A stretch of 41,681 nt of DNA from a virus (lineage: Duplodnaviria; Heunggongvirae; Uroviricota; Caudoviricetes), in IMG/VR virus record IMGVR_UViG_2606217106_000020; one strand, given 5' to 3'. The stretch's first letter is position 1, and each line of letters opens with the position of its first letter. The position numbers were made by a program. Shown here one piece after another: positions 27,001 through 30,000 of the stretch.

Positions 27001-30000
27001 AGCGGTCGTTCTGGCGCTGATTGCTGCGGGCGCTTCTGCGCCTGAAATCCTCGACCAGTTTCTTGACGAAAAAGAAGGTAACCACACCACGGCATACCGT
27101 GATGGTGCGGGTATCTGGACTATCTGCCGCGGTGCCATCCTGGTGGATGGCAAACCTGTCGTTCCGGGCATGAAGTTGTCGAAGGAAAAATGCGACCGGG
27201 TTAACGCCATTGAGCGTGATAAGGCGCTGGCATGGGTGGAGAAAAACATCAGAGTGCCACTGACCGAACCGCAGAAAGCGGGCATCGCGTCATTCTGTCC
27301 GTACAACATCGGGCCTTCGAAATGCTTCACCTCAACGTTTTACCGGAAACTGAACGCAGGAGACCGGAAAGGTGCATGTGCTGAAATCCGCCGATGGATA
27401 TATGACGGCGGCAGGGACTGTCGGAACCGCTCAAATAACTGTTACGGGCAGGTATCGCGGCGTGACCAGGAGAGCGCGCTGGCGTGCTGGAGTATCGACA
27501 GATAAGCAGAATATTCTGCTGAAAAATGCCGTTGACCAACGCGAACGGATAACACGAAATCCTGCGAACTGGCAAAATTTAAGTGAGTAAAAGTAAAAAC
27601 CCCGTTTGTTGGCAGCAAGCGGGGTTTTGTGTTTCTGACCTTGAATAAGGCAAGGGAGAAATTATGGGTAGGGAGGTTCTTTCCCTGTGAGGAAGTATAA
27701 AAGATTCTTTCTGAGGTTGTCCATTATGAAAGGCATTGAGGTGGAGACGCCAGCAAGTCTGGATTTAACAAGAGCGGCAGCTTTTGCCATTCGTATTGTG
27801 GCAATTGCTGTTCTGGTCTGGGCAATCCGTTGGTGGTGATATGAATCGTGTGCTGTATGGCGTGCTTATTGTCCTGCTGCTTGGTTGTGGATCGCTGTGG
27901 CTGGCAACAGACCATTACCGTGATAACGCCATCACCTACAAAGAGCAGCGAGATGATGCGAAGACAAAACTCAGCCAGGCGAACGCCACCATTGCTGACA
28001 TACAGCAGCGCCAGCGTGATGTTGCTGCACTCGATGCCAGATACACCAGGGAGCTTGCTGATGCTAACGCGACTATTGAAAGTCTCCGTGCTGATGTTTC
28101 TGCTGGGCGTAAGCGCCTGCAAGTCGCCGCCACCTGTGCAAAGTCAACGACCGGAGCCAGCGGCATGGGCGATGGAGAAAGCTCAGGACTTACAGCAGAT
28201 GCTGAACTCAATTATTACCGTCTCCGAAGTGGAATCGACAAGATAACCGCGCAGGTTAACTACCTGCAGGAGTACATCAGGATGCAATGCCTCGATTAAC
28301 AGAGCCAGCTCAATCGCTGGCCTTTTTTATGAGGAGAGATATAACCTGAATCAATGCCAGTGCATTATCAACAAATGGATCACTGGGTAAGCTCGTTTGG
28401 TTTTAAATGTCCGTCGAGAATCAGATTGTGATTTTCCCGATGCAGAACCAGTGTGCCCATATAATCAGGTTTAAATCTCCATCCATTCATTTTTTTTGCA
28501 ATTCTGGACAGACAGTGATTATGTGTGAAAATCACAGTAACATGATCTGATTTTGATATTTTAAGGATATTATTTACTGCGTTATCATCACATGTCGATA
28601 TGTCCGGAATAGTTGCTGTCTTACCTCCCGAAAAAAAAGTGGCTGTCTGCATTGTTCGGAGTGTGTCTGTAGAATAGAGACTGTAGTATGGAAACATTCT
28701 TCTGAATTTATCTCCATATTGTTGAGCTTTGTTAGCTCCGTTTACTGTGATTCCCTCATGTGCTGAAAGACATATTCTTTGGGAGCGATCGCATCTTTCC
28801 CCATGCCGGATGAGAAAAATAATGGGATGTTTCTGGTTAATCTCAGTGACATCGTTCACATCAAGTCTGACTGGAGTTCTTACAATGTATATGATGGATA
28901 CAGAAACGATTATGACAAGTAAAAATATAAGAAGAGATTTTGTTAGCGTTTGATTTAACATATAAATTCCCTTGTCTGTGTTGAAAATGGGCATTATTAT
29001 GCGTAAATCTTATGTAATCCTTAAGGATTGTCTGACGTGGTGATATGACGCGAAATACAGTGGGTACACAGAATGCTGTGAACAACGACGAAATGGGCAT
29101 TGGTAGCGGTACTGGTGCTTTTTTTATTGGTTGGTTGCTCAAGTCTTGATAAAGCGCGTTAGCTTTTTGGTATTGCCTCTTAGGTCTGTAAAATTGCCGA
29201 CGGTGTCCGGCAGTGCATGCAGGGCTGATCGTCTATGAGAACAGAATATATTGCTAAAAATGAAGTGTGCGTCAATGCTTATAAAGCATGCAATTCTGTA
29301 TTTCTAACTATTCAATAAAATAAATTCTTTCTGTCGCAGTGAATATACAAATGTTGATCAGCGCTCGATGTGGCGACGGGTTTCTATATCAGGAGACTTT
29401 GGCATTTATCCGCGAGGCAGCCTATCTGGTGCTGTAGTGGAATGAAGCGGATATAACCTAAATAAGGTTAAACATTAATCAGACATGGCTCTGCTGTGTG
29501 AAATCTGAAAATTTACAGCAGTCATTGTGCATCAGTTTTTAACAGAGAACGTCAGAAGGTGACATGGCAAAGCTGGACTGGAAAAAGCTGGAGCAGGCAT
29601 TTCGACGCGAACATGTCAAAACCGGCATAAAGCTTCAGGATTGGTGCCGTCAGAACAATATCAGTTATGACACGGCTCGGCGGTACATTAAACTGCGCAA
29701 ACACTCCCCCAGAAATACAGAGAAAAGTGCGCAGAAAAATGCGCAAATTGATGATCAAAAAAGTGCGCAGAAATCTGACGGCAACTCCAGTCATGACGAG
29801 CCTTCAGGCGATGATGGTTGTGATGAAAAATGCGCAAATTTGGCAGAAACGAAACGGACTCGTGGTTCCAGACTTTTGCCACCTTCAAATGCTTTTTCTC
29901 AGCGTAACACCCACGCCGTCAGACACCGTGGATACGCGAAGTATCTCGAGGCAGATAACCTCATAGATGATGCAGTCGGAATGGAACTTGCCGATGAACT

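What the first reader, a model, noticed from the sequence alone, without database searches (positions are those of the whole stretch)
27506..27841. Possible 37-aa membrane peptide and a terminator-like hairpin inserted between the endolysin and Rz
Between R and Rz lies a hairpin with a T-run (ccccg-N13-cgggg-tttt, about 27600-27630) and a small ORF (about 27727-27840, MKGIEVETPASLDLTRAAAFAIRIVAIAVLVWAIRWW) whose stop overlaps the Rz ATG. Lysis cassettes are usually tightly packed, so an extra transmembrane peptide here could be a lysis regulator or a moron.
Basis: seen in the sequence. Interest (0 to 1): 0.35.

Follow-up and report, generated by a model that had tools for sequence, protein, structure and literature searches.

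The report
Conserved small membrane gene before Rz
Between the endolysin gene and Rz of this E. coli prophage lies a real, widely conserved but unstudied gene for a tiny membrane protein (50 or 37 residues) that always travels with a terminator-like hairpin and sits almost always in phage lysis gene clusters, so it is probably an unrecognised helper of host-cell lysis.

Summary
Both observed features are real. The hairpin (27596-27628, about -21 kcal/mol, A-run before, T-run after) is one of only two strong hairpin+TTTT sites on the late-gene strand of the 41.7-kb window. The ORF is a gene under purifying selection (pN/pS 0.12). Hairpin, structured leader and ORF form one mobile cassette. It follows three unrelated endolysin types (GH24 SAR lysozyme, M15 peptidase, GH108), usually just before Rz or another lysis gene, and occasionally lies among tail genes. 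The protein matches PHROG 4493 (unknown function; related to 1115 and 3246). It has no Pfam, NCBIfam, PADLOC, PDB or Rfam match and I found no literature on it. About 1,300 of 5,426 complete E. coli genomes carry it. Best reading: a late-expressed accessory lysis membrane protein, possibly with two starts like holin/antiholin genes. The hairpin would stop non-antiterminated transcription, and translation is coupled into Rz. The function is inferred, not shown. Interest is moderate.

The parts
26972..27505 (+). R, SAR-type lysozyme (context; upstream neighbour)
   Evidence: Pfam Phage_lysozyme E 5e-25; ORF
27506..27595 (+). R-linked 3' spacer, conserved with R whatever follows it; begins with the palindrome GCAGAATATTCTGC (27506-27519)
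   Evidence: 86-91% identical after R in H-19B, Stx2 phages and Sakai Sp10/Sp12; 1,824 of 5,426 E. coli genomes match the interval
27596..27637 (.). Intrinsic-terminator-like hairpin (stem 27596-27610 / 27614-27628, loop GGC) with A-run 27595-27599 and T-rich tail 27625-27636; looks bidirectional
   Evidence: Every one of about 30 sequence variants folds at -12.5 to -26 kcal/mol with different stem sequences
27631..27662 (+). Leader hairpin that pairs the T-rich terminator tail with the first Shine-Dalgarno sequence (AAGGGAGA, 27652-27659)
   Evidence: Minimum-free-energy fold of 27585-27735, z = -2.4
27664..27690 (+). Mini-ORF MGREVLSL*; its TGA overlaps the GTG start (GTGA)
   Evidence: Sequence. 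Its ATG aligns with the ATG start of the long protein in short-leader relatives. The peptide itself is not conserved
27669..27687 (+). Hairpin that sequesters the second Shine-Dalgarno sequence AGGGAGG (27670-27676) and the G of the GTG start
   Evidence: Stem kept with variable loops in relatives (AGGGAGGTTCTTTCCCT / ...GTGTGT... / ...GTGCTT...)
27687..27839 (+). Long form of the gene, 50 aa: M(GTG)RKYKRFFLRLSIMKGIEVETPASLDLTRAAAFAIRIVAIAVLVWAIRWW
   Evidence: A start codon (GTG/ATG/TTG) at this position in 118 of 119 copies. ATG with a strong SD in short-leader relatives. End-to-end match to phrog_4493, E 1.4e-24. The basic extension is kept in distant homologs. AF2 predicts helices 3-18 and 22-49
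27727..27839 (+).
   Evidence: The Met is invariant in the family. The Arg codon that supplies GAGG/GAGA is always AGG or AGA. pN/pS 0.12
27841..28299 (+). Rz (with embedded Rz1), starting 1 nt after the small gene's stop (context; probably translationally coupled)
   Evidence: Pfam Phage_lysis E 8e-37. The TGAnATG junction is conserved in L005, L006, L007, L008 and L216

Best explanation
The R-Rz interval holds one mobile cassette made of three parts. The first is an intrinsic-terminator-like hairpin. The second is a short structured leader. The third is a gene for a small single-pass inner-membrane protein. That protein has a basic amphipathic N-terminal helix, an acidic linker, a hydrophobic helix with an invariant AFAI(R/K) motif, and a C-terminal (R/K)WW. 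I read it as an accessory lysis gene of the late operon, working as follows. After induction, Q-modified RNA polymerase coming from the Q gene region reads through the hairpin, whereas polymerases that are not antiterminated stop there. The 50-aa form starts at GTG 27687. Its Shine-Dalgarno sequence is locked in a hairpin, and its start overlaps the stop of an 8-codon mini-ORF, so its translation is gated and coupled. A 37-aa form can start at the internal ATG 27727. Ribosomes terminating at TGA 27837 restart 1 nt later on Rz. In the membrane the protein(s) modulate lysis, most likely its timing; the two products would differ by a +5-charged N-terminal extension, the logic used by holin/antiholin dual-start genes. 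Shown here: the sequence features, purifying selection, linkage of hairpin and gene, and the genomic contexts. Inferred: transcription pattern, translation starts, membrane insertion, and any effect on lysis.
For: The gene is real. pN/pS is 0.12 overall (0.05 for the N-terminal part) over 16 distinct alleles with pS 0.45, and variable sites by codon position are 15/5/28. It stays intact in E. coli, Salmonella, Citrobacter, Cronobacter and Yersinia. The long start is supported. Hairpin and gene travel together: the same or compensated hairpins precede the gene after GH24 lysozymes, M15 peptidases, GH108 muramidases, Ant, a tail fibre and a baseplate spike. The link to lysis cassettes is strong: about 95% of 128 IMG/VR copies lie directly after an endolysin and before Rz or a small lipoprotein. 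Distant homologs also sit next to lysis genes: before Rz (L216), overlapping the start of a lysozyme gene (L215), and at the head of a pinholin / SAR-endolysin cassette (L211). The stop-restart junction with the downstream lysis gene is conserved. A Q antiterminator lies upstream and no sigma-70 promoter was found between hairpin and gene. Readthrough of terminators by Q-modified polymerase is established lambdoid biology, not tested here.
Against: There is no expression or phenotype data. I found no paper that mentions the protein. Model phages lyse normally without it: K-12 Qin has R and Rz overlapping and phiP27 lacks it. It is therefore not essential. Some copies lie outside lysis cassettes: between gpV spike and a baseplate gene in a myovirus (L212-214), and after a tail fibre at a Cronobacter prophage end (L018). 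It lacks the charged C-terminal tail typical of holins and matches no holin family. The hydrophobic helix is interrupted by a conserved Arg/Lys, so a true transmembrane topology is not certain. Positional conservation could partly reflect recombination among related lambdoid phages rather than function.
Confidence: 0.5

Rival explanations
1. Moron for the lysogen. The cassette is an autonomous add-on whose small membrane protein benefits the lysogen, for example by superinfection exclusion at the inner membrane as HK97 gp15 does. Its place in the lysis cassette would then be only a permissive insertion site.
For: It is inserted between genes that are adjacent elsewhere. It is mobile and mosaic, and it also occurs among tail genes. 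The R-Rz gap is a hotspot that also holds Ant and other small membrane ORFs of PHROGs 4906 and 6632. Other morons lie nearby, such as the minus-strand histidine phosphatase.
Against: No sigma-70 promoter-like site lies between hairpin and start codon (inspection of variants). The terminator lies upstream, so it would block rather than allow lysogenic expression. The gene is translationally joined to the downstream lysis gene. Its position next to lysis genes holds in very distant homologs. There is no PADLOC hit.
Confidence: 0.2
2. Spanin or outer-membrane-step accessory. The protein acts with the gene that follows it (Rz/Rz1, or the 30-residue mature lipoprotein of P27-like cassettes), for example by regulating i-spanin or by forming a minimal envelope-disrupting pair where no i-spanin is present.
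For: It is nearly always immediately upstream of Rz, or of the small lipoprotein phrog_7528, with a TGAnATG junction. P27-like cassettes show no i-spanin-like ORF next to the lipoprotein. The lipoprotein hits spanin models only weakly. The N-terminal helix is cationic and amphipathic, reminiscent of the phiKT disruptin.
Against: phiP27 itself has the lipoprotein without the peptide. In L215 and L211 the homologs precede a lysozyme or a pinholin, not a spanin. The protein has no periplasmic domain long enough to reach the outer membrane.
Confidence: 0.12
3. Type I toxin-antitoxin-like unit. The hydrophobic peptide is toxic and is controlled by an antisense RNA that starts at a minus-strand promoter (-35 TGGACA 27723-27718, -10 TATACT 27699-27694) and ends at the bidirectional hairpin.
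For: A 10-of-12 promoter match on the minus strand. The hairpin has a good T-run on the minus strand in all variants. The roughly 100-nt antisense fold has z = -3.5 and exposed anti-SD stretches. A leader mini-ORF with coupling resembles mok/hok.
Against: The -10 is simply the complement of the Tyr-Lys codons, and it degrades in L211 and L212 while the peptide extension stays conserved. The -35 differs between types. Such promoter matches are common (8 found against 3.2 expected in 3 kb). No toxin-gene promoter was found. No Rfam family reached threshold, with the best weak hits at E 0.08-5. No Hfq-bound sRNA candidate lies in the R-Rz gaps of Sakai.
Confidence: 0.05
4. The hairpin is unrelated to the ORF. 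It would be just the terminator or 3' stabiliser of the S-R message, or a barrier to antisense transcription from downstream minus-strand morons. The ORF would matter only as a ribosome relay for Rz.
For: A hairpin after R is also present where other genes follow: H-19B, and a different hairpin before ant in Sp10. Stop-restart junctions are conserved.
Against: Identical or compensated hairpins accompany the gene after wholly different upstream genes. In L211 the unit hairpin+leader+ORF is repeated in tandem. The amino-acid sequence is under strong constraint, pN/pS 0.05 in the N-terminal part, which a mere relay would not need.
Confidence: 0.08

Closest known systems
PHROG families phrog_4493, phrog_1115 and phrog_3246 (phage proteins of unknown function)
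   Same: Direct sequence membership. The 50-aa form matches phrog_4493 end to end (E 1.4e-24) and the two sister families more weakly. The B-type relatives (…AFAIKWVAVGIAVSPMLYGLAKLVIALKS) match phrog_1115.
   Different: These are only clusters. No function, topology, start site or genomic logic has been described for them.
Dual-start holin/antiholin genes (lambda S105/S107; phage 21 S68/S71, a homolog of which is at 26752-26967 in this window)
   Same: A small membrane protein encoded inside a lysis cassette. Two in-frame starts. The longer product carries extra positive charge at the N-terminus. An RNA hairpin at the upstream ribosome-binding site could set the ratio of the two products.
   Different: No sequence relation. 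It has one interrupted hydrophobic helix instead of 2-3 TMDs. It has no charged C-terminal tail, ending in RWW. The extension is 13 residues (+5), not 2-3. It lies after the endolysin, not before it. It is dispensable in model phages. Hole formation is untested.
Morons of lambdoid phages (Juhala et al. 2000; e.g. HK97 gp15, lambda bor/lom) - from my own knowledge
   Same: Extra DNA inserted between late genes that are adjacent in other phages. It is mobile and mosaic, encodes a small membrane protein, and is associated with a factor-independent terminator.
   Different: No promoter of its own was found. The terminator is 5' of the gene. The gene is translationally fused into the operon. Lysogenic expression is therefore unlikely.
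Accessory lysis membrane proteins (P1 LydB, P2 LysA, Mu gp25 'releasin'; PMC9239132, PMC9025707 were listed but not read)
   Same: Non-essential small membrane proteins in lysis cassettes that tune holin or SAR-endolysin action.
   Different: No homology was detected. This family occurs with three endolysin types and different holins, so a specific partner is not obvious.
hok/mok/sok-type type I toxin systems
   Same: A hydrophobic peptide of about 50 aa, a structured leader that hides the SD, an overlapping leader ORF, and a nearby bidirectional terminator.
   Different: No conserved antisense promoter, no toxin promoter, no Rfam match. It is always co-oriented inside late operons.

Membership tests
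PHROG phrog_4493 | Significant full-length match to the family profile | tested here: met
   E 1.4e-24, protein residues 1-50 against profile positions 1-54 of 56. The 37-aa form gives E 5.5e-16 against profile positions 14-54.
Intrinsic (Rho-independent) terminator | G+C-rich stem-loop immediately followed by a U-rich tract | tested here: met
   A 15-pair stem, about -21 kcal/mol, tail TTTTGTGTTTCT. One of two such sites on the + strand of the window.
Intrinsic (Rho-independent) terminator | Actually terminates RNA polymerase, and is read through by Q-modified polymerase | not testable with these tools
   Needs Term-seq or in vitro transcription with and without Q.
Holin / antiholin | Encoded in a lysis cassette next to the endolysin | tested here: met
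Holin / antiholin | At least one transmembrane domain | tested here: inconclusive
   AF2 helix 22-49 with pLDDT about 95. The hydrophobic run A30-I47 is interrupted by the invariant R36, leaving only 11 uncharged residues between R36 and R48.
Holin / antiholin | Highly charged hydrophilic C-terminal domain | tested here: not met
   The protein ends ...AIRWW directly after the hydrophobic helix.
Holin / antiholin | Dual-start motif giving two products | tested here: inconclusive
   Both start positions and their SD-like sequences are conserved. No translation data.
Holin / antiholin | Match to a described holin family | tested here: not met
   No Pfam or NCBIfam hit and no PHROG with a holin label. 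As a control, the L211 neighbour ORF3 does hit the holin family phrog_920.
Holin / antiholin | Lethal membrane permeabilisation, or inhibition of it | not testable with these tools
   Needs an expression or lysis-timing experiment.
Moron (Juhala et al. 2000 definition, from my own knowledge) | Lies between two genes that are adjacent in related phages | tested here: met
   rrrQ and rzpQ overlap by 4 nt in K-12 Qin.
Moron (Juhala et al. 2000 definition, from my own knowledge) | Own sigma-70 promoter upstream of the gene | tested here: not met
   No + strand promoter-like site in 27506-27727. None is conserved in the variants.
Moron (Juhala et al. 2000 definition, from my own knowledge) | Factor-independent terminator downstream of the gene | tested here: not met
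   The hairpin is upstream. The gene runs straight into Rz.
Type I toxin-antitoxin | Antisense RNA gene with a conserved promoter overlapping the toxin leader | tested here: not met
   The minus-strand -10/-35 are not conserved in L211 and L212. No Rfam hit.
Two-component spanin (i-spanin) | N-terminal TMD followed by a long periplasmic coiled-coil domain | tested here: not met
   The hydrophobic helix is C-terminal and only RWW follows it. Rz at 27841-28299 fills this role.

The most novel reading that the evidence does not exclude
The PHROG 4493/1115/3246 proteins (perhaps together with the other small single-helix proteins of the same gap, PHROGs 6632 and 4906) are a previously unrecognised class of lysis-cassette proteins. 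They would be carried on a self-contained 'terminator hairpin + gated leader + dual-start gene' cassette that plugs into lysis cassettes regardless of endolysin or holin type. They would tune lysis timing generically, for example through two isoforms of opposite topology or activity that act on the membrane potential to which all holins and SAR endolysins respond.
Probability: 0.2. Interest if true: 0.7.

Novelty: new member of a known kind. Interest (0 to 1): 0.42.

Why it matters
Phage lysis in Gram-negative hosts is described as holin + endolysin + spanin, plus a few regulators that are each specific to one phage. This small protein family is absent from that picture. Yet it sits inside the lysis cassette of prophages in roughly a quarter of complete E. 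coli genomes, including O157:H7 Sakai (ECs_1094), O104:H4 outbreak strains and Stx phages, and it is under strong purifying selection. If it tunes lysis timing, it would affect burst size and, in Stx phages, the timing of toxin release. The cassette also illustrates that late-operon 'extra' genes can move together with a 5' terminator and a translational gate instead of a promoter. If the protein has no lysis phenotype, the result is still useful: the annotated start is probably wrong, and H-19B carries an unannotated gene at the same place.

Tried and rejected
(1) Known sRNAs. Rfam at gathering thresholds found nothing in the interval. Relaxed thresholds gave only chance-level hits.

(2) The 64 Hfq-bound sRNA candidates of EHEC Sakai. 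None lies in an R-Rz gap. HnrS (EcOnc10-12) lies just downstream of Rz on the other strand and is not homologous. AgvB/AsxR/Pas sRNAs lie upstream of the holin.

(3) Antisense promoter / type I toxin idea. The -10 is the complement of conserved Tyr-Lys codons and is lost in distant homologs while the peptide stays conserved.

(4) 'Minimal spanin' (peptide + 30-residue lipoprotein). Weakened because phiP27 has the lipoprotein without the peptide.

(5) Pfam, NCBIfam, PADLOC and PDB sequence searches gave no hits.

(6) An exhaustive HMMER search found only 30 representatives at 50% identity and no longer protein with a known domain.

(7) The search for related loci on genome contigs failed because tblastn cannot confirm so short a protein. 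The leader DNA pattern found nothing in the species-representative genomes. The IMG/VR scans worked.

(8) RNAalifold on the hairpin alignment recovered only the 5 outer pairs because of register shifts. Per-sequence folding was used instead.

(9) Literature searches by locus tag, peptide sequence and topic gave nothing. The supplement of PMC7547250 is not held.

(10) tblastn with the 37-aa peptide was crippled by the low-complexity filter.
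Full report
**Setting.** The window is a lambdoid (Stx-phage-like) E. coli prophage. Pfam identifies a Q antiterminator (22973-23407), a P21-type holin S (26752-26967), the lysozyme R (26972-27505), Rz (27841-28299) and, after Rz on the minus strand, a histidine-phosphatase moron (28380-28994). The 335-nt gap between R and Rz is the finding. In the K-12 Qin prophage the homologous rrrQ and rzpQ genes overlap by 4 nt. The gap is therefore inserted DNA.

**Observation check.** The hairpin is real. AAAACCCCGTTTGTT-GGC-AGCAAGCGGGGTTTT (27596-27628) forms 15 pairs at about -21 kcal/mol. An A-run precedes it and TTTTGTGTTTCT follows. I scanned the whole window for hairpins of -14 kcal/mol or better that end directly at a TTTT. 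Only two places on the + strand qualified: this one, and one near 23645-23685 just downstream of Q.

Three details need correcting.
- The stop TGA (27837-27839) is one base before the Rz ATG (27841) and does not overlap it.
- The spacer between ccccg and cgggg is 15 nt, not 13.
- An in-frame GTG at 27687 extends the ORF to 50 codons.

**The ORF is a gene.**
- It is annotated as WP_000675931.1 in RefSeq, as ECs_1094 in Sakai prophage Sp4, and in phage GER2. The exact peptide occurs on at least 1000 contigs.
- 1,318 of 5,426 complete E. coli genomes match 27640-27845, and 670 match over at least 80% of it.
- Among 16 distinct alleles collected from IMG/VR and annotated genomes, synonymous divergence is high (pS 0.45) and non-synonymous divergence low (pN 0.053). 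That gives pN/pS 0.12, and 0.05 for the N-terminal acidic part. Variable sites fall 15/5/28 by codon position. The sister type gives pN/pS 0.17.
- Homologs occur in Salmonella, Citrobacter, Cronobacter, Yersinia and E. marmotae.

**The family.**
- The protein matches PHROG phrog_4493 (unknown function) and, more weakly, phrog_1115 and phrog_3246. It has no match in Pfam, NCBIfam, PADLOC or PDB.
- An exhaustive HMMER search of 1.84 billion representatives found only 30, so the family is narrow.
- Two C-terminal types exist...AFAIRIVAIAVLVWAIRWW and ...AFAIKWVAVGIAVSPMLYGLAKLVIALKS. Several N-terminal types exist, and they are shuffled among each other. A-x-AFAI-(R/K)-x-VA is nearly invariant.
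- AlphaFold predicts two helices, 3-18 and 22-49 (pLDDT 77.5, and about 95 over the hydrophobic helix).

**The start codon.**
- In the 'short-leader' relatives it is an ATG right after AAGGGAGAAC.
- The extension M-x-(K)-Y-K-R-F/I-F/L-L-R-L-S/T is kept at the protein level in distant homologs whose DNA differs: MTVYRKTFRLRISM, MNYKRFFVRLNM, MKQYKRIFLRLSIM.
- The 50-aa form matches the PHROG profile end to end, E 1.4e-24 against 5.5e-16 for the 37-aa form.
- In the window, about 25 extra bases have turned the ancestral ATG (27664) into the start of an 8-codon mini-ORF. Its TGA overlaps the GTG (GTGA). The GTG's Shine-Dalgarno sequence AGGGAGG sits in a hairpin (27669-27687) whose stem is conserved while its loop varies.
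It is preceded by GAGG or GAGA, supplied by an Arg codon that is always the rare AGG or AGA.

A dual start producing 50-aa and 37-aa products is therefore plausible, but it is unproven.

**Hairpin and gene are one unit.** The same architecture appears after unrelated upstream genes: A-run, hairpin, T-run, 30-60 nt of leader, then the gene. The upstream genes are:
- GH24 SAR lysozymes of E. coli and Salmonella;
- M15 peptidase endolysins;
- GH108 muramidases;
- Ant;
- a 93-aa unknown protein;
- a Peptidase_S74 tail fibre in Cronobacter;
- a gpV-like spike in a myovirus.

The stem sequences differ (ccccgtttg.../ccccgattg.../cccggctg.../gccccggctg.../ccccagctg...), yet every variant folds at -12.5 to -26 kcal/mol. 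In metagenomic locus L211 the unit is repeated three times in tandem. The order there is capsid E, hairpin, phrog_4493, hairpin, 4493-like ORF overlapping a pinholin (phrog_920), hairpin, ORF, phrog_6632, SAR lysozyme. An alignment-based covariation test was weak because of register shifts.

**Context.** Of the 128 leader-bearing copies, about 95% lie directly after an endolysin gene and before Rz/Rz1 or a 51/60-aa lipoprotein (phrog_7528). Distant homologs lie before Rz (L216) or overlapping the start of a lysozyme gene (L215). The junction with the downstream gene is tight: TGAnATG, TAATG or TAGcccATG. The exceptions are the myovirus baseplate site and the Cronobacter prophage end.

The R-Rz gap more generally is a hotspot for small one-helix proteins. 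PHROG 4906 (ECs_1966) and PHROG 6632 also sit there. The latter includes an unannotated 45-aa ORF in phage H-19B, at the same position behind the same hairpin.

**Mechanism.** I favour an accessory lysis protein of the late operon (confidence 0.5).
- Established knowledge says that Q-modified polymerase ignores intrinsic terminators. On that basis the hairpin would stop only polymerases that are not antiterminated.
- No promoter-like site lies between hairpin and gene, so expression should be late.
- The leader structures would gate the long form.
- Termination next to the Rz ATG would couple Rz translation to the small gene.
- The two putative products differ by a +5-charged amphipathic extension, which parallels the holin/antiholin dual-start logic.

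All steps after 'sequence and conservation' are inference.

**Rivals** (details are given in the rival explanations).
- A lysogen-benefit moron, 0.2. It is weakened by the missing promoter, the 5' terminator and the coupling to Rz.
- A spanin-step accessory, 0.12. It is weakened by phiP27, which has the lipoprotein but not the peptide.
- An antisense / type I toxin unit, 0.05. The -10 is the complement of the Tyr-Lys codons and is lost in distant homologs.
- A hairpin unrelated to the gene, with the ORF acting only as a ribosome relay, 0.08. It is contradicted by the co-mobility of hairpin and gene and by protein-level constraint.

**Comparison with what is known.** It works most like a dual-start lysis-cassette membrane protein, but it is not a member of any holin family. 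It has no charged C-terminal tail, no family match, and only one interrupted hydrophobic helix. It resembles a moron in being inserted and mobile, but it fails the promoter and 3'-terminator criteria. I found no paper that mentions it, whether searching by locus tag, sequence or topic.

**Verdict.** The feature is real and the family is conserved, catalogued and uncharacterised. It is of moderate interest. The function is unproven but directly testable.

Noticed in passing
L003 (phage H-19B, AF034975.3), locus about 2130-2297, between R and Rz: An unannotated 45-aa ORF, MFDFSKLIREIRVMAEKLSTWKFILIWLVFVIMASGYFIGQIRWW. It lies behind the same hairpin and ends TGAaATG at Rz. It matches phrog_6632 (E 1e-29), and the exact protein is on at least 1000 contigs.
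   Followed up: partly
window 29058-29225 (+): A pseudogene (three in-frame stops) of the P27-type small lipoprotein phrog_7528, 68% identical to the intact copy. It lies downstream of the minus-strand phosphatase gene, a sign of mosaic ancestry with P27-like lysis cassettes.
   Followed up: partly
L005 1024-1837 and about 27 IMG/VR loci (P27-like cassettes): The cassette runs holin, holin, M15 endolysin, small peptide, 51/60-aa lipoprotein, with no i-spanin-like ORF nearby. How these phages breach the outer membrane is not obvious.
   Followed up: partly
window 28380-28994 (-): A histidine-phosphatase-family gene on the opposite strand just after Rz. RefSeq calls it 'lipopolysaccharide core heptose(II)-phosphate phosphatase' (Ais/PmrG-like). 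It is a probable moron and is truncated in the phage GER2 annotation.
   Followed up: no
window 23746-23951 (+) and about 23645-23685 (+): An STnc100 sRNA match (165 bits) between Q and the SASA esterase gene. It is preceded by the only other strong hairpin+TTTT site on the + strand, a candidate tR'. A convergent minus-strand hairpin lies at about 23956.
   Followed up: no
window 18821-19019 and 20406-20604 (+): Two copies of an isrK / c4-a1b1 / C4 antisense RNA block (P1/P7-type antirepressor immunity RNA), each upstream of Bro/Ant-like ORFs.
   Followed up: no
window 16783-16957 (+): A full-length sok antitoxin RNA match (110 bits), implying a hok/sok-type module in the prophage early region.
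   Followed up: no
window 27372-27590 (+): An alternative-frame ORF (72 aa) that overlaps the 3' end of R and runs 85 nt past its stop. It is annotated as a hypothetical protein in GER2. The 90-nt spacer after R is conserved with R in most relatives and begins with a 14-bp palindrome (27506-27519). Its role is unknown.
   Followed up: no
L211 2400-3685 (JGI metagenome 3300007140): A lysis cassette placed directly after the major capsid gene. It is built from three tandem hairpin-led units carrying five small membrane ORFs (4493, 4493-like, a pinholin, an unknown, 6632), followed by a SAR lysozyme.
   Followed up: partly
L011 6320-6368 (Sakai Sp10), minus strand just after Rz: The published sRNA HnrS (EcOnc11) maps immediately downstream of Rz. 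It has no sequence relation to the cassette studied here, and I did not check whether the window has a copy.
   Followed up: partly
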